Shown: positions 23,136 through 29,530, numbered from the stretch's first letter. The stretch is DNA of 64,000 nt from Ilumatobacteraceae bacterium (GCA_043740085.1 JAYUCY010000094.1:2325-66324), one strand, 5' to 3'. A program made the numbers and translations. Notes: generated by a model from the letters alone, not told the origin.

Positions 23136-23190
23136 CGAAGTGACGCGGTGCTGCGTCTACGACCTGGGGTTGTGAGAAACAAGCGCGTCA
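23136..23190 (+). repeat. 55-nt repeat, copy 1 (upstream of tRNA-Thr)
   Basis: CGAAGTGACGCGGTGCTGCGTCTACGACCTGGGGTTGTGAGAAACAAGCGCGTCA. The ends TGACGCG / CGCGTCA are self-complementary. Confidence 0.7.
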
Positions 23191-23227: not shown

Positions 23228-23282
23228 CGAAGTGACGCGAGGTTGCGTCTGCGACCTGGGATTGTGAGGAACAAGCGCGTCA
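23228..23282 (+). repeat. 55-nt repeat, copy 2
   Basis: CGAAGTGACGCGAGGTTGCGTCTGCGACCTGGGATTGTGAGGAACAAGCGCGTCA. 49 of 55 positions match copy 1. It is followed by TATGTT, a possible -10 for the tRNA. Confidence 0.7.
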
Positions 23283-23333: not shown

Positions 23334-23406
23334 GCCGGGTTAGCTCAGCTGGCAGAGCAACGCACTTGTAATGCGTAGGTCAAGGGTTCGATTCCCTTAC
23401 CCGGCT
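23334..23406 (+). tRNA. tRNA-Thr (anticodon UGU)
   Basis: Manual cloverleaf: acceptor GCCGGGT/ACCCGGC, D arm GCTC-AGCTGGCA-GAGC, anticodon arm ACGCA-CTTGTAA-TGCGT, variable AGGTC, T arm AAGGG-TTCGATT-CCCTT, discriminator T. CCA is encoded at 23407-23409. Confidence 0.9.
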
Positions 23407-23485
23407 CCACATAACACCAGGTAGATGGCACGTTTGCTGAGACTGCGCTTCTCCACAAAGTGGGTCGGCCAAGATTCGGGTGGTT

Positions 23486-23735
23486 TGCCGGTCCTGAAGG
23501 GATTGATGCACGAACGCGGCAGGGTGCGTGGGAGTAGATCGTGCAGCTGCCGTGCGATCCTCTGACGGGTACCGCCAAGCAAGTGAGCCGTACGGTGGAC
23601 GGCACCAAACGCGAAGCCCGGCGCGCTGGCCGAGCTGGTGACGAAGGTTTCGGCAGGCAAGATCTCGTCAACGACGACAACGCTCGACCAGCTGCTGGTG
23701 CAATGGCTCGAGCTCCTTCGTCTTCACGCACTCGT
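23486..23735 (+). pseudogene. tyrosine-integrase N-terminal stub (frameshifted, catalytic domain absent)
   Basis: Reading across two frames gives ...GRVRGSRS / VQLPCDPLTGTAKQVSRTVDGTKREARR / ALAELVTKVSAGKISSTTTTLDQLLVQWLELL. This is the arm-binding/SAM-like N-terminus typical of actinobacterial phage/ICE integrases. No R-H-R-Y catalytic region follows. Confidence 0.5.
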
Positions 23736-23782
23736 AAACGCCTTTTGGTGGCGTCCGGGCGTGTATCCGCGTGGCCGGGCAC

Positions 23783-24067
23783 CTACTCGGCAGTAGTCGG
23801 CACAGTTCTCGTGCCGACTAGCGAAGACTTTGCGAGTACTCGGAAGCCGTCTCGTGAACTCGGCACGTTCAGCGCCCCGATCTCTGCCGAGTAGACCGCC
23901 GAGTTACGGACATCGAGCTGATCCTGCGGTCGCCAGAGAGCAAGACGGGTGGAGTTCAAGAGAGATCTGACGTCGCCCGACTGTGTTCTTCGCACGATCG
24001 TGGCGTTCGCGAACTCCGCGGTGGGGTGCTCGTTGTCGGGGTTGAGGACGCGTCGTGGGTTCGCCAT
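23783..24067 (-). CDS. hypothetical protein (94 aa), no recognisable domain
   Basis: Track ORF 23783..24118, started at the ATG at 24067 (MANPRRVLNPDNEHPTAEFANATIVRR...). Third-position G/C is high in the first half. It may be a fragment. Confidence 0.3.
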   Translation of the reverse strand: MANPRRVLNPDNEHPTAEFANATIVRRTQSGDVRSLLNSTRLALWRPQDQLDVRNSAVYSAEIGALNVPSSRDGFRVLAKSSLVGTRTVPTTAE

Positions 24068-24197: not shown

Positions 24198-24361
24198 CAC
24201 GCGGCGCGAACAGCTCCAACGACTGCTCAGCGAGTTCGACCGGCACGCCGACAGCCTTCTCGACGCGTTCGCGCACGTCGACGGCGTCGTCGGCACGCCG
24301 ATCACCTAATACACCGCGGAACTGCGGCGCGAGCTGGGCATCACCTGACCCATCGGTCGTC
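24198..24361 (+). repeat. 164-bp direct repeat, copy A (degenerate 3-prime tail of a SEC-C-type gene)
   Basis: Matches 28918-29081 at a constant offset of 4720 nt with 4 mismatches (24217, 24309, 24310, 24336). Here the TAC codon of copy B is TAA, so track ORF 24055..24309 ends 15 codons early. Confidence 0.85.
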
Positions 24362-24534
24362 GCGGCGCGTCGACGCCCACCTCCCGGGCTTCTTGTGTGG
24401 GAGCGCGCATCGGGCGCATCGCGTTGGGTTGTCCTTACGGAAAGATGCCGTCTGGGGTCAAGGAGGCTGCGCCTCCAGCCCAACCGTCTGTGTCGTGGAA
24501 ACCTCAGCGGTCGCAGTCGTCGATGTCGTCGTCA

Positions 24535-24589
24535 ATAATGATGGCTGTCTACGCCATTATGGCCCATAATGATGTATACGACGATCATT
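24535..24589 (+). promoter_or_regulatory. AT-rich operator/promoter region of hipBA
   Basis: ATAATGATG occurs at 24535 and 24566. Reverse copies are CCATTAT (24555-24561) and GATCATT (24583-24589), and a GCCATTATGGC palindrome lies at 24553-24563. An RBS GGAGAGGAG precedes the ATG at 24604. Confidence 0.4.
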
Positions 24590-24603: not shown

Positions 24604-24897
24604 ATGCCGAAGCTGAACGCTCGTACGCAGCGCTCTGCCGCACAATTCGGGACACACCTCGCCACCTGGCGCAAACTACTGAACCTCACCGCTGACCAGG
24701 TAGCGCAACGGGCCGACATTGACCGCGGCACACTGCGTCGCCTCGAGAAGGGTGACCCGGTCGGCTTCGACGTAGTGCTGTCCGTCGCCCGGGCTCTCGG
24801 AGTGCTCGACAAACTCGTCGACGCCGTCGACCCGTGGGAATCTGACCTTGGTCGTGCACGCGCCGGCGCCGTGCTCCCCAAACGGGTGTACCGATGA
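24604..24897 (+). CDS. hipB: XRE-family helix-turn-helix antitoxin (HipB-like)
   Basis: 97 aa with HTH LRKLLNLTADQVAQRADIDRGTLRRLEKGD. The stop overlaps the hipA start (ATGA at 24894-24897). Confidence 0.75.
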   Translation: MPKLNARTQRSAAQFGTHLATWRKLLNLTADQVAQRADIDRGTLRRLEKGDPVGFDVVLSVARALGVLDKLVDAVDPWESDLGRARAGAVLPKRVYR

Positions 24898-26234
24898 TCG
24901 ACCGACTGGACGTACACATCGAACTCGACGGGCGAACACACCCGGCGGGTACCGCCTATTTCGTTCAACGTCGCGGCGGACCGGTGGCGACAACGTTCGC
25001 GTACTCCGTCGAATACCTCGCGAACCCGACAGCAATCAGCATCGATCCGAACCTGCCGCTCGTCAGCGGCCAACAAGCCACCAACGGCATGCCGGGAGCG
25101 TTCCAGGATTGCGCACCAGACAGGTGGGGACGCAACCTCATTCTGAAACGATCCCGGACCAGCGTCAGCGCCGGTGATCGAACCCCGGCGCTGAACGACG
25201 CCGACTTCCTCGCCGTGGTGAGCGACATCACCCGCCAAGGGGCGCTTCGGTTCTCACTGTCAGGCACCGCCGAATTCATCGACGCTGGTCTGCGTGTGCC
25301 GAAACTGATCGCGTTGCCCCGGCTGCTCTACGCTGTTGACCGGCTGGCCGACGACGACGAAAGTGACGAAGCGGTCAAAGTGCTGCTCGACGCCGGCTCC
25401 GGGTCGCTCGGCGGCGCACGACCAAAGGCGTCAGTGCTCGACAACGGGCGGCTGCTGCTGGCAAAGTTTCCGCATCGCAGCGACGGCTGGGATGTGATGG
25501 GCTGGGAAAAAACAGCGTTGGACATCGCCGGCCGGGCAGGTATCAACGTTCCGGGTAGACGCCTCGTTGGTCTCGACGGCCGCCAGATCTTGTTGCTCGA
25601 ACGATTCGACCGCGACGACCAGCACCGCATCGCCTACATCAGCGCGATGACACTCGTCGGTGGGCGCATCGGTGAGGACTACGACTACGCCGACATCGCA
25701 GCCACTCTTCCCGATTTCGGGTCCCGAGTGGCTGCTGATCTCGACGAGATGTTCCGGCGTGTTGTCGTGAGCTGCGCCATCCACAACACCGACGACCACT
25801 TTCTCAACCATGGGTTCCTTGGCAGCGCGGCCGGATGGAAACTGGCGCCTGTTTTTGACATCAACCCGAACCCTGATCTCAACGAAGGCAGGGTCACGTC
25901 GATCGCCGCGGCCAGCCGCGCTGAAGACGAACCAGCAGGACTGATAGCGGTAGCAGGCGACTTCCGTCTCACTGAAAGCGCCGCCCGTTCCATCGTGACT
26001 GAGGTGGTCGACGCCGTTGCCGACTGGGCTGACATCGCCACCGCCAACGGGATCAGCGCCCGCGAGCGCGAACAGTTCCGACCGATGTTCAACGACCGGA
26101 TCGCAGCGCTCGCCAGCACCGCCCTCCTGCCCCGGCCGGGGCCAGCTCGTGCTGCCTCGACGACACAGCGGCGAGTTCCCAAGGGCTCCCCGACCGCAGG
26201 CCAGTTTGCCAAGAAAGACACCCATCACCCCTGA
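24894..26234 (+). CDS. hipA: HipA-family serine/threonine kinase toxin
   Basis: HipA N-terminal domain (DCAPDRWGRNLI). P-loop-like SGSLGGARPKASV, catalytic IHNTDDHFLNHGF, and Mg-binding LAPVFDINPN. Confidence 0.85.
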   Translation: MIDRLDVHIELDGRTHPAGTAYFVQRRGGPVATTFAYSVEYLANPTAISIDPNLPLVSGQQATNGMPGAFQDCAPDRWGRNLILKRSRTSVSAGDRTPALNDADFLAVVSDITRQGALRFSLSGTAEFIDAGLRVPKLIALPRLLYAVDRLADDDESDEAVKVLLDAGSGSLGGARPKASVLDNGRLLLAKFPHRSDGWDVMGWEKTALDIAGRAGINVPGRRLVGLDGRQILLLERFDRDDQHRIAYISAMTLVGGRIGEDYDYADIAATLPDFGSRVAADLDEMFRRVVVSCAIHNTDDHFLNHGFLGSAAGWKLAPVFDINPNPDLNEGRVTSIAAASRAEDEPAGLIAVAGDFRLTESAARSIVTEVVDAVADWADIATANGISAREREQFRPMFNDRIAALASTALLPRPGPARAASTTQRRVPKGSPTAGQFAKKDTHHP

Positions 26235-26386
26235 CGGACCGGACGACCAGGAGGCTCAATTCCAACTCGCAACGGTCAAAGCGTCTCACCCGAAGCGAAT
26301 TGCAGCTGCGACGAGCCCGTCCGTCGCGCGTCACTGAAGTGCCTACTTGAGACTGCGGGCATGCTGCGACGGTAGCGTCGGCACGC

Positions 26387-29068
26387 ATGGCGCCTGACCT
26401 TGACCGGATCAGCTTTCTGTTTGGTGAGGACGCTCTCACCGACCTCGACGCGTACGACTTCGACGTCGAGTCAGACGTCGTTGCAGCCATCGAGCGGTTC
26501 GTGGCCATGCCGAGCGGCTCAGCGGTGGATGGCATGCGTTCGGCCGTCCGCACCATCGCGGTCCGGCAAGTTCTTGATGACGACCCGCCCGAGGCGTGGC
26601 GGGCCGCGATCCGCATGCGCGATGCTGGGTTCGATCGCGACGAAGTGCTCCGCCAGCTGTCGATGGTGATCTCCGAGCACGTCATCGAAAGCCTCTCCAC
26701 GGTCGAGCCGAGCGACCCGGCACAGCTGGCCTTCGCGCTGGACGCGCTCCCGTTGCCCTCGGCCGAACAGATCGCCGAGGTACTGGTCGGCATCGCCCGC
26801 GCCACCCCTGGGCTCGACGCCGACGACCACATCCAGCAAGCCGTTGCGGCGCTCGGGTCGGGAGCGGGCGGGCGAGTCCTGCAGGCCCTGGTCGAGCGCG
26901 TACTCGACGCTCTCGTGGAAGGCCCGTTGCACTGGTTGGCCGATGATGTGACGGTCGCCTTCTTCGACACGATTGCCGGCCGAACGTTCACTCACCGTTT
27001 CAACGACTCCGAACGCGAGATGGGCGTGCTCAGCATCTCCGTCGACATCGCCGGGTATCAGCGCTTCGACAGCGTGCGCCTCGCCGACGGAACCGAGCTC
27101 GAGCAGTTCTCAGTGGAGCACGGTCACATGGCATGGCGTGGCCCTGAGGGTTGGCTTGGTGGTTTCACTGCGGACGACCTTCTCGCTGTCACGGCGGAGT
27201 TCACTACGCCGAGCGGCGACCAACGTGTCGATGCGACGGTCACGATCCGCGTGGTCGCCGACTCTCCGGCAGTGACTGGCGAACTCACCTCGGCGGTACG
27301 CGCTGCCTACGACGCAGAGCAGCACGAGCACGGCCTGCCGGTTGCGGCGGAAGATCTGGTTGTGTGGCTCTGCCACCACCACCCGGAAATGTTCAGGGTT
27401 CCGCTGCCACCGATCTCCGACCTGATCGAACATGCCGGGCTGGAGCTGAACGGCGGCTTCATGGCGCATGACGATTCGGTGTGGCGGCAGGATCTGTTGG
27501 TACGACGAACTCGCCGGCTGCTCGACATCGTGCCCGAGCCGCACTGGCGCAAGGTGCTCGGCCGCGCCATCGAGGTGCTTGCCGACCCAGAGGCGGAGGT
27601 TGACCTCATTCGCGCATCACTCGACGAGTGCGCAGAACCCGCGACGCTCGACGAGCTCGTCGACCTGTTGATCCCCGAGTATCTGGCACCGCAGGACGAG
27701 TACGACCTCGCCGGTGTCGATGCGCCCGGTCGCGCGTTCGAGCTCGTCCACCGGGCGATCGCAGTCGCCCGTCGACCGCGTCAGGTGGCCACGGCTGAAT
27801 ACCTCGCATGTGGTTTACGTGAGCGGTGCGGGCAGCCCATGGCCGCCCTGGAGCACCTCACCCGGGCGGTGGAGGCGCAACCCCGGCTCGGGCCGATTGT
27901 CGAGCGGATGGGGTGGTACTGCTTCGACCGAGGTGATGCCCGCGGCGCGATGCGTTGGTGGCGTGAGCTGGAGGAGGCTCACCCAGCGGCGAGCACCATT
28001 GCTGGGTTCCTCGCTCGAGCTGATGGCAATCCCAAGGTTGGGCGCAACGACCCGTGCTGGTGCGGGTCTGGCCGGAAGTTCAAGCAGTGCCATCAGGGCA
28101 CGAGCGACCAGCCGGCGCTTCCCGACCGGGTGGGCTGGTTGTGCCGCAAGGCATCAGCTTGGGTCGAACACTCCACCGGCGAGGCACGTAATCTGGTGAC
28201 GGATCTGGCCATCGCATACGTCACCGGAGACCCCGACGCCGATGCATCCGACGTGGTGAGTGCTGACGAGCGCAGGATGCAGCAGCAGTTCGAGGTTGCG
28301 TTTGCCGACCCGCTGCTGTTCGATGCGACGCTCCACGAAGGGGGCCAGTTCCGGCGTTTTCTGTCCGAACGCGGCGACCTGCTACCCGATGACGAGCGGC
28401 TCCTCGCCACAGCGTGGCTCACCGTCGATCGCAGTGTGCACGAGGTGCTGTCGGTCGAGCGTGGTGTTGGACTGCAGCTGCGCAATCTCGCCACCGGAGA
28501 TGTTGTCGATGTACGCGAACGCACCGCGTCGAAGCAGGCGCACGTGGGCGAGCGTTACTGTGCGCGCGTGGTGCCCGATGGTGCATCGCACCAGATCATC
28601 GGCGGCGTGTTCGAGGTGCGCACCGGCCACGAACAGCAAGTACTGGACCTGTGCCTGGCGGCCGACGCTGCGGCGTTGTGTGCATGGGCTGGTGCACTGA
28701 ACCAGCCACCACGGATCGTTCACCGACCGGGCATGATCGACTCGATGCTGGACCGAAGCGCGCTGCAAGCCGCGCTGGACGAAGGGGAATTCGCCGACGA
28801 GACCGAGATGCTGTCGCGACTCAACGCCGAACTGTCGCGGCAAGCCCAATCACGGTGGCTTGACGACAACGTTCCGGCTCTCGGAGGCCTGACCCCACGG
28901 CAGGCCGCCGCCGACCCCACGCGGCGCGAACAGCTCGAACGACTGCTCAGCGAGTTCGACCGGCACGCCGACAGCCTTCTCGACGCGTTCGCGCACGTCG
29001 ACGGCGTCGTCGGCACGCCGATCACCTACGACACCGCGGAACTGCGGCGCGAGCTAGGCATCACCTGA
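26387..29068 (+). CDS. 893-aa SEC-C-motif (zinc knuckle) protein of unknown function
   Basis: An internal GRNDPCWCGSGRKFKQCH lies at codons ~552-569 (DNA 28055-28093 for C..CH). The C-terminal WLDDNVPALGGLTPRQAA segment is followed by the repeated tail. I recognise no enzymatic motif. Confidence 0.75.
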   Translation: MAPDLDRISFLFGEDALTDLDAYDFDVESDVVAAIERFVAMPSGSAVDGMRSAVRTIAVRQVLDDDPPEAWRAAIRMRDAGFDRDEVLRQLSMVISEHVIESLSTVEPSDPAQLAFALDALPLPSAEQIAEVLVGIARATPGLDADDHIQQAVAALGSGAGGRVLQALVERVLDALVEGPLHWLADDVTVAFFDTIAGRTFTHRFNDSEREMGVLSISVDIAGYQRFDSVRLADGTELEQFSVEHGHMAWRGPEGWLGGFTADDLLAVTAEFTTPSGDQRVDATVTIRVVADSPAVTGELTSAVRAAYDAEQHEHGLPVAAEDLVVWLCHHHPEMFRVPLPPISDLIEHAGLELNGGFMAHDDSVWRQDLLVRRTRRLLDIVPEPHWRKVLGRAIEVLADPEAEVDLIRASLDECAEPATLDELVDLLIPEYLAPQDEYDLAGVDAPGRAFELVHRAIAVARRPRQVATAEYLACGLRERCGQPMAALEHLTRAVEAQPRLGPIVERMGWYCFDRGDARGAMRWWRELEEAHPAASTIAGFLARADGNPKVGRNDPCWCGSGRKFKQCHQGTSDQPALPDRVGWLCRKASAWVEHSTGEARNLVTDLAIAYVTGDPDADASDVVSADERRMQQQFEVAFADPLLFDATLHEGGQFRRFLSERGDLLPDDERLLATAWLTVDRSVHEVLSVERGVGLQLRNLATGDVVDVRERTASKQAHVGERYCARVVPDGASHQIIGGVFEVRTGHEQQVLDLCLAADAAALCAWAGALNQPPRIVHRPGMIDSMLDRSALQAALDEGEFADETEMLSRLNAELSRQAQSRWLDDNVPALGGLTPRQAAADPTRREQLERLLSEFDRHADSLLDAFAHVDGVVGTPITYDTAELRRELGIT

Positions 29069-29081
29069 CCCATCGGTCGTC
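28918..29081 (+). repeat. 164-bp direct repeat, copy B (authentic 3-prime end of the SEC-C gene plus 13 nt)
   Basis: See copy A. 160 of 164 positions are identical. Weaker similarity continues about 12 nt further with a 1-nt indel. Confidence 0.85.
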
Positions 29082-29089
29082 CCGAGCGT

Positions 29090-29339
29090 CGACTGGTGCC
29101 CCGGCGAGGTGGGATCGGCGTTCGTGACGATCTGGCCGCCAGCCGCTGCGATCGCGTCGAGTGTCGGCTCTGGCGGGAGCATCGCGAAGACGCCGAGTGG
29201 GGTGAGGACCGTTCGCGACTCGGTTCGACATCAACTCCAGCGCCGAGAAACTGAACGCATCGCCCTGCACGATCAGCGCCGTCTTGTCACCGAAACGCCG
29301 GGCGGCCTCCGGAACAATCTCACCGATCGTCGATGCCAT
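29090..29339 (-). pseudogene. acyl-CoA synthetase (AMP-binding) N-terminal remnant
   Basis: MASTIGEIVPEAARRFGDKTALIVQGDAFSFSALELMSNRVAN is a typical ligase N-terminus. The frame then breaks. A second frame reads VLTPLGVFAMLPPEPTLDAIAAAGGQIVTNAD, and nothing further follows. Confidence 0.5.
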
Positions 29340-29404
29340 ACGGGAACGGTAGCCGACATTGTCCTGAGCAGGTGAAAAGCCTCCTACCAGGTACGCAGCA
29401 ATCG

Positions 29405-29530
29405 TTCGCGCACAACCCGAAGGTCGCAAGTTGTCAGATGGACATCGTTGGTGGTGTGCAGTTGGTCAACGGTTGGAAGGCGTCGATCGTGTCGGGGATC
29501 GACGACCACTCGCGTTCGTGATCTCGGCGC
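29405..29530 (+). mobile_element. IS481-like (rve integrase core) transposase fragment
   Basis: CQMDIVGGVQLVNGWKASIVSGIDDHSRS then a stop. This resembles the W-Q-x-D...DDHSR segment of IS481/IS3-type DDE transposases. Only about 40 codons are present. Confidence 0.4.

What the first reader, a model, noticed from the sequence alone, without database searches (positions are those of the whole stretch)
24604..29068. hipBA followed by a large SEC-C-motif protein: possible three-component kinase module in a tRNA-linked island
hipB and hipA are translationally coupled (ATGA overlap). HipA keeps its key motifs: GGARPKASV, HNTDDHFLNHGF and LAPVFDINPN. An 893-aa gene follows on the same strand after a 152-nt gap. 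The only motif I can name in it is an internal zinc knuckle (CWCGSGRKFKQCH), which is unusual because SEC-C motifs are normally C-terminal. Its C-terminal W-x-x-x-x-P-A-L-G-G-L-T-P-R-Q-A stretch reminds me of the toxin-binding domain of Xre/ParS/MbcA-type antitoxins, but this is from memory and unverified. The three genes are mobilised as one unit by the repeats above and sit 1.2 kb from a tRNA gene with an integrase stub. Multi-component HipA systems exist (HipBST), but I know of none with a SEC-C partner. This could be an uncharacterised modulator or target of the kinase, or an independent passenger.
Basis: inference. Interest (0 to 1): 0.65.

Follow-up and report, generated by a model that had tools for sequence, protein, structure and literature searches.

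The report
Ordinary hipBA beside unrelated SEC-C gene
A standard two-gene HipB/HipA toxin-antitoxin pair sits next to a large uncharacterised zinc-knuckle protein gene in a decayed tRNA-linked island, and comparison with over 100 related loci shows this is an accident of the island's history, not a three-part system.

Summary
The sequence observations are correct. They include the hipB/hipA ATGA overlap, the HipA motifs, the 152-nt gap, the 893-aa gene with an internal SEC-C knuckle, the WxxxxPALGGLTPRQA tail, the 167-nt repeat and tRNA-Thr 1.2 kb upstream.

- The closest relatives (L081/L096, 88% identical SEC-C, syntenic udk–tRNA-Thr flank) carry SEC-C without hipBA.
- Of 112 loci found through the SEC-C family, only two hold hipBA. 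Both belong to the window's own lineage, and in both the SEC-C gene is a decayed fragment.
- None of 32 near-full-length SEC-C loci has HipA.
- More distant hipBA loci lack SEC-C.
- No conserved neighbour of SEC-C exists.

In relatives, hipBA lies between SEC-C and an attR-like tRNA-Thr repeat. The 167-nt "repeat" is the 3' stub of a decayed SEC-C copy with a premature stop. It is not a mobilisation site.

hipBA carries its own operator-like palindrome. SEC-C carries a conserved −10-like hexamer 8 nt before its ATG and no Shine-Dalgarno sequence.

The SEC-C protein models confidently as helical/TPR-like regions, a Zn knuckle, an OB fold and a sub-threshold DUF2384-like tail. Its function is unknown.

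Verdict: canonical HipBA plus an independent passenger gene. Low interest.

The parts
23334..23409 (+). tRNA-Thr (anticodon UGU); the attL side of the island
   Evidence: ARAGORN. Rfam tRNA, 72 bits. In L081/L096 the 3' half plus about 35 nt downstream is repeated after SEC-C.
23538..23793 (+). Probable frameshifted remnant of an integrase N-terminal arm-binding domain (weak)
   Evidence: The two reading frames, joined across a 1-nt shift, give ...RTVDGTKREARRALAELVTKVSAGK...TLDQLLVQWLE. Pfam Arm-DNA-bind_4 scores E 0.0042, 17.1 bits, against a cut-off of 22.3. There is no catalytic domain and no hit in phage or plasmid records.
24198..24364 (+). 3' remnant of a decayed SEC-C gene copy (repeat copy 1), with TAC changed to TAA, a premature stop
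   Evidence: It is 97% identical to 28918-29084. tblastn matches SEC-C aa 845-893 at 94%. The sequence was read directly. It is 88% identical to the L081 SEC-C 3' end.
24535..24589 (+). AT-rich operator/promoter-like region of hipBA: an imperfect 26-nt-arm palindrome and two copies of ATAATGATG
   Evidence: the repeat finder. The half-sites ATGATGG...CCATTA are kept in L085 and L135, where homology to the window starts exactly here, at 24532-24538.
24604..24897 (+). hipB: HTH antitoxin/repressor, 97 aa
   Evidence: Pfam HTH_31 E 5.8e-10 and HTH_3 E 1.3e-8. dN/dS is 0.13 against L085.
24894..26234 (+). hipA: full-length HipA-family Ser/Thr kinase toxin, 446 aa
   Evidence: Pfam HipA_C E 2.5e-38 and Couple_hipA E 2.1e-6. 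A family profile matches E. coli HipA structures at E 1.2e-9, aligning HNTDDHxxN with the catalytic loop TDGHAKN and FDI with YDI. There are more than 7,700 homologues.
26373..26378 (+). TAGCGT, a -10-like hexamer 8 nt upstream of the SEC-C ATG, with no Shine-Dalgarno sequence; likely own promoter giving a leaderless mRNA (inferred)
   Evidence: TA(G/A/C)CGT sits at the same distance from the ATG in L081, L082, L176, L177 and L178, although the upstream contexts are unrelated. Homology to L081 begins at 26354, which is -33.
26387..29068 (+). 893-aa SEC-C-motif protein, an uncharacterised solitary gene family. Helical N-terminal region, small beta domain (aa 200-290), TPR-like helices, Zn knuckle (aa 553-570, nt 28043-28096), OB fold (aa 683-743, nt 28433-28615), DUF2384-like motif (aa 820-854, nt 28844-28948)
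   Evidence: Pfam. 78 homologue clusters. AF2 model with pLDDT 85.6 and pTM 0.75. Fragment model with pLDDT 91.9 and OB-fold matches such as IF1, CspA, RPA32 and RMI2 at probability 0.97-1.0. dN/dS is 0.25 against L081.
28918..29084 (+). Repeat copy 2: the intact 3' end of SEC-C plus 16 nt. Beyond 29084 lies a rearrangement junction with a truncated AMP-binding ORF on the minus strand
   Evidence: the repeat finder. Junction sequences. ORF list.

Best explanation
The locus holds two independent things that share a decayed tRNA-Thr genomic island.

(1) hipBA is a canonical, self-contained type II toxin-antitoxin pair.
- HipB is an HTH protein. It is inferred to bind the AT-rich palindromes upstream of its own gene and to neutralise HipA.
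- HipA is a full-length HipA-family Ser/Thr kinase with an intact catalytic loop and Mg-binding motif. By analogy with E. coli HipA, it is inferred to arrest growth by phosphorylating a translation factor such as an aminoacyl-tRNA synthetase.

(2) The 893-aa gene belongs to an uncharacterised, solitary gene family found in Acidimicrobiia and some Mycobacteriales.
- Its architecture is helical/TPR-like regions, a SEC-C zinc knuckle, an OB fold and a DUF2384-like tail.
- It is probably transcribed from its own -10 element as a leaderless mRNA.

The ancestral island order was tRNA-Thr | integrase remnant | SEC-C | hipBA | attR. In this genome the SEC-C gene was duplicated to the far side of hipBA. 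The original copy then decayed to a 167-nt stub. This produced the 'flanking repeat' and the hipBA-then-SEC-C order.

Shown: gene identities, synteny, reciprocal presence and absence, and the remnant nature of the repeat.
Inferred: kinase target, operator function, leaderless promoter and the order of the rearrangements.
For: - L081 (88% identical SEC-C) and L096 share the Amidohydro-LytR_C-DUF3263-udk-tRNA-Thr flank with the window at 86-91% nucleotide identity. In both, SEC-C is followed directly by an attR-like tRNA repeat, with no hipBA.
- L135 reads tRNA-Thr, decayed SEC-C, then intact hipBA inserted about 60 nt after the SEC-C stop. In L085/L118 hipBA is followed by the same attR region.
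- HipA/HipB tblastn against 112 SEC-C-family loci gives only L118 and L135. Both have 88-90% identical HipA and a decayed SEC-C. Scores are 0 of 32 near-full-length loci and 0 of 45 loci with at least 2.5 kb on both sides.
- HipA loci at 42-65% identity (L087-L095) have no SEC-C.
- Pfam-labelled contexts of six SEC-C orthologues are all different. Clustering of neighbouring ORFs found no conserved neighbour.
- hipBA has an operator-like palindrome. SEC-C has a conserved -10-like hexamer.
- All three genes are under purifying selection.
- None of the 10 HipA gene organisations catalogued by Gerdes et al. 2021 includes a SEC-C partner (PMC8262856).
Against: - hipBA and SEC-C sequences are adjacent in at least five related metagenomic populations, so the pairing is older than this genome. 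A trans-acting intact SEC-C copy in the genomes with decayed copies cannot be excluded, because those contigs are short.
- No terminator is evident in the 152-nt gap, so read-through from hipBA into SEC-C is possible.
- The DUF2384-like tail belongs to a domain class that binds toxins in RES-Xre systems.
- All neighbourhood evidence is comparative. Nothing was tested functionally.
Confidence: 0.85

Rival explanations
1. Three-component kinase module: the SEC-C protein is a dedicated modulator, second antitoxin or target of HipA, co-transcribed with hipBA.
For: - The genes are on the same strand, 152 nt apart, with no terminator-like site between them.
- SEC-C has a DUF2384-like tail.
- SEC-C-derived sequence lies next to hipBA in L085, L086, L118 and L135.
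Against: - In those four contigs SEC-C is a fragment, while hipBA is intact and under purifying selection.
- The closest intact orthologues (L081, L096) lack hipBA.
- 0 of 32 full-length SEC-C loci have HipA.
- HipA homologues elsewhere lack SEC-C.
- The ancestral order was SEC-C upstream of hipBA, not downstream.
- HipA keeps its own N-terminal subdomain, and HipB is a standard antitoxin.
Confidence: 0.04
2. The 167-nt direct repeats bound a 4.7-kb mobile or excisable unit (hipBA + SEC-C) that moves as a cassette.
For: - The 97% identical direct repeats are spaced 4720 nt apart.
- The setting is an island next to a tRNA gene.
Against: - The repeat is the last 50 codons of SEC-C plus 16 nt. 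The upstream copy carries a premature stop.
- Recombination between the copies would destroy SEC-C rather than mobilise it.
- There is no recombinase gene, only a sub-threshold integrase arm-domain remnant.
- Relatives show three different states of SEC-C decay at the same place, not a conserved cassette boundary.
- The true att repeat in relatives is the tRNA-Thr 3' half. It is absent downstream in this window.
Confidence: 0.05
3. The SEC-C protein is itself a stand-alone defence or toxin-antitoxin-like island gene. On this view it would be a sensor or scaffold whose DUF2384-like tail, OB fold and Zn knuckle bind a partner or nucleic acid. It would be co-resident with hipBA only because both are typical island cargo.
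For: - It sits in tRNA-Thr islands (L081, L096, the window; tRNA-Thr lies 5 kb upstream in L084).
- One orthologue lies among PhdYeFM-like, HNH and helicase genes.
- Duplication and pseudogenisation are frequent.
- dN/dS is 0.25, against 0.06 for neighbouring housekeeping genes.
Against: - Other orthologues sit among ordinary metabolic genes.
- PADLOC gives no hit beyond the Zn motif.
- No enzymatic or toxin-like domain was found. Foldseek gave no match at E<=1e-3.
Confidence: 0.15

Closest known systems
HipBA type II toxin-antitoxin system (E. coli K-12 HipA/HipB; HipA clades of Gerdes et al. 2021, PMC8262856)
   Same: - An upstream HTH hipB overlaps hipA.
- HipA is full length, with the N-terminal Couple_hipA subdomain and the HipA_C kinase core.
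- The catalytic motif (HNTDDHxxN) and Mg-binding motif (FDIN) align with E. coli D309/N314/D332.
- There are palindromic operator-like repeats upstream.
   Different: - It is only distantly related to E. coli HipA. Single-sequence phmmer finds no PDB match, and the profile E-value is 1e-9.
- It belongs to a large actinobacterial group of Kribbella/Nocardioides type.
- The target and the toxicity are untested.
HipBST tripartite system (E. coli O127, Legionella)
   Same: It has a HipA-family kinase and an HTH HipB. It is the known precedent for a three-gene Hip system.
   Different: In HipBST the kinase HipT lacks the N-terminal subdomain, and a small HipS supplies it as the antitoxin. Here HipA keeps that subdomain, there is no hipS, and the third gene is a 893-aa unrelated protein that is not conserved with hipA.
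Xre/MbcA/ParS antitoxins of RES-Xre (MbcTA, ParST) systems: DUF2384, PF09722
   Same: SEC-C aa 820-854 (W-x5-PALGGLTPRQAA-DP...LL) gives PF09722 as the top Pfam hit, and 25 of 46 family fragments match it.
   Different: - The score is below Pfam's cut-off. ParS in the PDB reaches only E 0.18 with the family profile.
- There is no N-terminal HTH and no adjacent RES/ART toxin gene.
- The motif sits at the end of a 893-aa multidomain protein.
SecA C-terminal metal-binding domain and the YecA/YchJ SEC-C proteins (bioRxiv 10.1101/613315)
   Same: It has the CxC-x8-C[HC] zinc knuckle (CWCGSGRKFKQCH). Pfam SEC-C scores E 5e-10.
   Different: - The motif is internal (aa 553-570 of 893) and lies in a low-confidence loop.
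- There is no UPF0149 (YecA) or NTF2-like (YchJ) domain.
- NCBI's 'YecA family' label on homologues rests on the motif only.

Membership tests
HipBA type II TA (HipA kinase) | HipA_C kinase core with catalytic and Mg-binding motifs | tested here: met
   Pfam HipA_C E 2.5e-38. Profile alignment to E. coli HipA places HNTDDHxxN on TDGHAKN and FDI on YDI.
HipBA type II TA (HipA kinase) | N-terminal HipA subdomain present on the kinase | tested here: met
   Pfam Couple_hipA scores 28.6 bits, above the 22.5 cut-off, at aa 29-90.
HipBA type II TA (HipA kinase) | Upstream HTH antitoxin gene hipB in the same operon | tested here: met
   A 97-aa HTH_31/HTH_3 protein overlaps hipA by ATGA. The same pair is found in L085-L095.
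HipBA type II TA (HipA kinase) | Growth arrest by HipA, neutralisation and autoregulation by HipB | not testable with these tools
   Only an operator-like palindrome and purifying selection were observed.
HipBST tripartite TA | Short kinase (HipT) lacking the N-terminal subdomain, plus a small HipS antitoxin gene | tested here: not met
   HipA is 446 aa and has Couple_hipA. There is no ORF between hipB and hipA.
Hypothesised HipBA + SEC-C three-component module | Conserved co-occurrence of the SEC-C family with HipA kinases across lineages | tested here: not met
   2 of 112 SEC-C loci hold hipBA. Both are from the window's own lineage and both have a decayed SEC-C. 0 of 32 full-length loci hold it. 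The closest orthologues L081/L096 lack hipBA.
Xre/MbcA/ParS antitoxin (RES-Xre) | C-terminal DUF2384 (PF09722) toxin-binding domain | tested here: inconclusive
   The window protein scores E 0.0073, 16.7 bits, below the 24.5 cut-off. 25 of 46 family fragments hit at E<=0.01, best 1.1e-5. ParS in the PDB scores E 0.18.
Xre/MbcA/ParS antitoxin (RES-Xre) | N-terminal HTH domain and an adjacent RES/ART-type toxin gene | tested here: not met
   The protein has no HTH hit. There is no conserved neighbour in 113 loci, and the six Pfam-labelled contexts differ.
YecA / SecA-MBD proteins | SEC-C zinc knuckle | tested here: met
   Pfam SEC-C E 5.2e-10 at aa 553-570. The Cys/His positions are invariant in 23 homologues.
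YecA / SecA-MBD proteins | UPF0149/YecA body, or the SecA ATPase, attached to the motif | tested here: not met
   NCBIfam YecA-type models match only the 20-residue motif, at 28 bits against cut-offs of 140-158.
tRNA-integrated genomic island | tRNA gene at one end and a direct repeat of its 3' half at the other | tested here: inconclusive
   This is met in L081/L096, and L085 has the attR-like copy. In the window itself only the tRNA end is present, and no second copy exists within 64 kb.
tRNA-integrated genomic island | Integrase gene | tested here: inconclusive
   Only a frameshifted arm-domain-like remnant is present, with PF14657 at E 0.004, below the cut-off. There is no catalytic domain.

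The most novel reading that the evidence does not exclude
The recent duplication put an intact SEC-C copy 152 nt downstream of hipA with no visible terminator. SEC-C may therefore now be co-expressed with the kinase. Its DUF2384-like tail, or its OB or TPR surfaces, might bind or be phosphorylated by HipA. That would make this lineage a nascent tripartite Hip system. More broadly, the SEC-C family could be an undescribed single-gene island or defence factor that interacts functionally with TA kinases.
Probability: 0.05. Interest if true: 0.6.

Novelty: new member of a known kind. Interest (0 to 1): 0.15.

Why it matters
As it stands the finding matters little. It adds one more actinobacterial HipBA pair and shows that gene adjacency inside an island is a poor guide to function. 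Two by-products are mildly useful.

- It gives a confident domain map of an uncharacterised ~890-aa family that databases mislabel 'YecA family': TPR-like helices, a SEC-C knuckle, an OB fold and a DUF2384-like tail.
- It gives a worked example of reciprocal decay in sister populations. hipBA stays intact beside dead SEC-C, and SEC-C stays intact without hipBA. This argues for functional independence.

If the tripartite reading were nevertheless true, it would add an eleventh Hip gene organisation to the ten catalogued.

Tried and rejected
- Whole-protein Foldseek against the PDB and BFVD gave nothing at E<=1e-3, only TPR-like and OB-like partial matches.
- PADLOC gave motif-only hits to PDC-S12 and E2 models.
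- Single-sequence phmmer of HipA against the PDB gave no hit, so a family profile was needed.
- The C-terminal profile (A2) against PDB sequences gave ParS at only E 0.18, with the top hits being spurious ankyrin and Aer2 matches.
- The same profile against the 5.8-billion-protein set returned mostly truncated SEC-C ORFs called from internal Met codons. It did not return bona fide small DUF2384 antitoxins, so it did not settle the homology question.
- All-against-all clustering of ORFs within ±5 kb of 113 SEC-C loci found no partner. The top clusters were SEC-C paralogues or their antisense shadow ORFs.
- The integrase remnant gave no Pfam hit on start-to-stop ORFs and no tblastn hit in phage or plasmid records.
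- The sigma-70 promoter scan found 0 sites, which is uninformative in a 65% GC actinobacterial-type genome.
- Rfam found nothing except the tRNA.
- The composition profile shows no GC anomaly over the island.
- Literature searches for HipA with SEC-C found nothing relevant.
- I considered integration of an element into the SEC-C 3' end, with the repeat acting as attL/attR. I rejected this because the intact gene lies on the wrong side of the remnant, and because relatives show that the real att repeat is the tRNA 3' half.

Full report
**1. What is in the sequence**

The window is about 65% GC and resembles Acidimicrobiia. Homologues of its genes come mostly from Ilumatobacteraceae and Acidimicrobiales MAGs.

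- The ORF list and the sequence show hipB at 24604-24897 and hipA at 24894-26234. They overlap as ATGA. A 152-nt gap follows, then an 893-aa ORF at 26387-29068.
- tRNA-Thr(UGU) lies at 23334-23409.
- Pfam assigns HTH_31/HTH_3 to HipB. It assigns HipA_C (E 2.5e-38) plus the N-terminal Couple_hipA subdomain to HipA. For the large protein it finds only a SEC-C zinc knuckle, at aa 553-570.
- A 167-nt direct repeat (24198-24364 and 28918-29084, 97% identical) brackets hipBA and most of the large gene.

**2. HipBA is a standard pair**

- HipA has more than 7,700 homologues. The nearer ones are annotated as type II HipA toxins in Kribbella, Nocardioides, Microlunatus and similar genera.
- A profile of 18 homologues matches E. 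coli HipA structures at E 1.2e-9. It aligns HNTDDHxxN with the catalytic loop TDGHAKN, and FDI with the Mg-binding YDI. A single-sequence search found nothing, so this is a distant member.
- The kinase keeps its N-terminal subdomain and there is no hipS gene. It is therefore HipBA-type, not HipBST-type.
- Immediately upstream of hipB lies an AT-rich imperfect palindrome (24537-24562 / 24564-24589) with two copies of ATAATGATG. Its half-sites are conserved in two related contigs, whose homology to the window begins exactly at this element. This is what an autoregulated hipBA cassette with its own operator should look like. That reading is an inference from E. coli HipB biology.
- Gerdes et al. 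2021 catalogue ten Hip gene organisations. None has a SEC-C partner (PMC8262856).

**3. The neighbourhood test**

(a) *Closest orthologues.* L081 (NCBI GCA_038328705.1) has a SEC-C that is 88% identical in protein and 89.5% in DNA. It shares the Amidohydrolase–LytR_C–DUF3263–uridine kinase–tRNA-Thr flank with the window at 86-91% identity. In L081 the tRNA and a gene-less stub are followed directly by SEC-C, with no hipBA. L096 has the same arrangement.

(b) *Genome collection.* In the one-genome-per-species collection, about 26 loci hold real family members, from Ilumatobacteraceae, Acidimicrobiaceae, Pseudonocardia, Mycobacterium and Rhodococcus. None has HipA or HipB within ±10 kb.

(c) *Metagenome scan.* I scanned metagenomes with a family-specific segment that leaves out the zinc motif. 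This brought the total to 112 SEC-C-family loci.
- hipBA occurs in two of them, L118 and L135. Both have HipA 88-90% identical to the window's, so they belong to the same lineage. In both, SEC-C is a fragment.
- None of 32 near-full-length loci has HipA.
- None of 45 loci with at least 2.5 kb on both sides has HipA.

(d) *Pfam-labelled contexts.* Six orthologues have entirely different neighbours: DsrE and peptidase M4; HxlR and enoyl-CoA hydratase; acetyltransferase; PhdYeFM, HNH and helicase; methyltransferase and SnoaL. Clustering of all flanking ORFs found no recurrent partner.

(e) *Reverse direction.* hipBA loci at 42-65% HipA identity carry no SEC-C.

**4. History of the island**

- In L081/L096 a ~70-110-nt copy of the tRNA-Thr 3' half plus downstream bases lies about 200 nt past SEC-C. 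It begins in the anticodon loop. SEC-C is therefore the cargo of a ~4-kb tRNA-Thr island.
- In L135 the order is tRNA-Thr, decayed SEC-C (two fragments), then hipBA. hipBA enters about 60 nt after the SEC-C stop, within sequence that L081 also has.
- In L085/L118 hipBA is preceded by a 90-nt SEC-C fragment (aa 420-440) and followed by the attR-like region. A second, internally deleted SEC-C remnant lies 5 kb away.
- The ancestral order was therefore tRNA-Thr | stub | SEC-C | hipBA | attR. In that order SEC-C lay upstream of hipBA.
- In the window, the upstream copy survives only as the last 50 codons plus 16 nt, with TAC changed to TAA. This remnant is 97% identical to the intact downstream copy but only 88% identical to L081. 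The downstream gene is thus a recent intragenomic duplicate, or a gene-conversion partner.
- Homology to L081 runs only from -33 to +16 around the intact copy.
- Beyond 29084 lies a truncated AMP-binding ORF, and no attR occurs within the window.
- The 'flanking repeats' are therefore pseudogene debris, not mobilisation sites. Recombination between them would delete hipBA and most of SEC-C.
- The pattern of reciprocal loss is the strongest argument for functional independence. Intact hipBA sits beside dead SEC-C in four contigs, and intact SEC-C occurs without hipBA in two.
- All three genes are under purifying selection. dN/dS is 0.25 for SEC-C, 0.20-0.24 for hipA and 0.13 for hipB, against 0.06 for udk and the amidohydrolase.

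**5. Expression**

- No terminator-like hairpin lies in the 152-nt gap, so read-through cannot be excluded.
- However, a TA(G/A/C)CGT hexamer sits exactly 8 nt upstream of the ATG in the window, L081, L082, L176, L177 and L178, although the upstream DNA is unrelated. None of these has a Shine-Dalgarno sequence.
- In Actinobacteria a TANNNT -10 element at that distance from an ATG is typical of leaderless mRNAs (general knowledge). I infer that SEC-C has its own minimal promoter. This would also explain why homology starts at -33.

**6. What the large protein is**

- There are 78 homologue clusters of about 880-930 aa, conserved end to end.
- AlphaFold2 with 23 sequences gives pLDDT 85.6 and pTM 0.75. 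The model shows:
  - a helical N-terminal region;
  - a small beta domain (aa 200-290);
  - TPR-like helices (weak Pfam TPR_14 hit);
  - the zinc knuckle in a low-confidence loop;
  - more helices;
  - a five-stranded barrel (aa 683-743);
  - a helical tail.
- A separate model of aa 575-775 (pLDDT 91.9) matches OB folds such as IF1, CspA, RPA32/14, RMI2 and Stn1. Probabilities are 0.97-1.0 and rmsd is 3.4-4 Å over about 70 residues, although the E-values are only about 3e-3 to 3e-2.
- Nothing enzymatic was found.
- The tail motif at aa 820-854 gives PF09722 (Xre/MbcA/ParS toxin-binding domain) as the top Pfam hit, but below the cut-off. 25 of 46 family fragments hit it, best E 1.1e-5. The family profile reaches ParS in the PDB only at E 0.18. 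The other defining features of those antitoxins, an HTH domain and an adjacent RES toxin gene, are absent.
- NCBI's 'YecA family' label on homologues rests on the 20-residue motif alone.
- SecA-type knuckles bind SecB and ribosomes (bioRxiv 10.1101/613315). With an OB fold and TPR-like repeats, my best guess is a binding or scaffold protein for a nucleic acid or ribosome-associated partner. This is speculation.

**7. Integrase stub**

- No ORF between the tRNA and the remnant hits Pfam.
- Joining two frames across a 1-nt shift (23538-23793) gives ...RTVDGTKREARRALAELVTKVSAGK...TLDQLLVQWLE. This scores PF14657 Arm-DNA-bind_4 at E 0.004, below the cut-off.
- The claim is plausible but weak. The catalytic domain is gone.

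**8. Verdict**

The locus is an ordinary HipBA module plus an unrelated, autonomous, uncharacterised gene. They were brought side by side, in this order, by duplication and decay inside an old tRNA-Thr island. The three-component hypothesis is not supported.

The residual probability of a real functional link is about 5%. It rests on the age of the co-residence within one lineage, on possible read-through, and on the DUF2384-like tail.

Noticed in passing
window 23778-23894: A 104-nt stretch is 95% identical to L081/L096, although the surrounding coding DNA is only 86-90% identical. It folds into a long imperfect hairpin (MFE -59.7 kcal/mol, z -3.4). It has no Rfam match. It lies in the gene-less stub between tRNA-Thr and SEC-C. 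It could be a small RNA or a recombination or regulatory site of the old element.
   Followed up: partly
window 23136-23190 and 23228-23282: A 55-nt direct repeat (89% identical, 92-nt spacing) lies just upstream of tRNA-Thr. L081 has a single copy that matches both. This is a small tandem duplication in the tRNA upstream region.
   Followed up: partly
window 29085-29429 (minus strand): An N-terminal fragment of about 45 aa from an AMP-binding/acyl-CoA-synthetase-like ORF (MASTIGEIVPEAARRFGDKTALIVQGD...) is followed by out-of-frame sequence. It abuts the right end of the SEC-C repeat and marks a rearrangement or deletion junction. The L081/L096 downstream genes (TauE, GntR, DAO, ABC transporter) are absent from the whole 64-kb window.
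   Followed up: partly
window 26367-26386, 24279-24298 and 28999-29018: The 20-nt motif CGACGG(C/T)(G/A)(T/G)CGTCGGCACGC occurs just before the SEC-C ATG and again near the 3' end of both SEC-C copies. L081 has it too. It contains the small palindrome CGACG..CGTCG and overlaps the -10-like hexamer. Its significance is unknown.
   Followed up: no
protein database hits P0199-P0318: Many 60-165-aa ORFs equal the C-terminal ~100 residues of SEC-C-family proteins. They start at conserved internal Met codons (MIDSM/MLDR/MFDR), and some lie on contigs of several hundred kb. They are probably frameshift-split or decayed genes, which suggests frequent pseudogenisation or long-read assembly errors in this family.
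   Followed up: partly
L085 1-1693 and 4390-8932: In the related contig, hipBA lies between a large LuxR/GerE-type regulator and a cysC-CitMHS-cysN-cysD sulfate-assimilation block. A second, internally deleted SEC-C remnant lies beyond that block. The island region is heavily rearranged between sister populations.
   Followed up: no
L017, L115-L117, L164 (distant SEC-C subfamily): A ~1100-aa ORF beginning MLVLHGFW... recurs next to the distant Pseudonocardiaceae and peat-metagenome members of the family. From memory it resembles an SNF2-helicase-associated N-terminus. It is not seen near the window's own subfamily.
   Followed up: no
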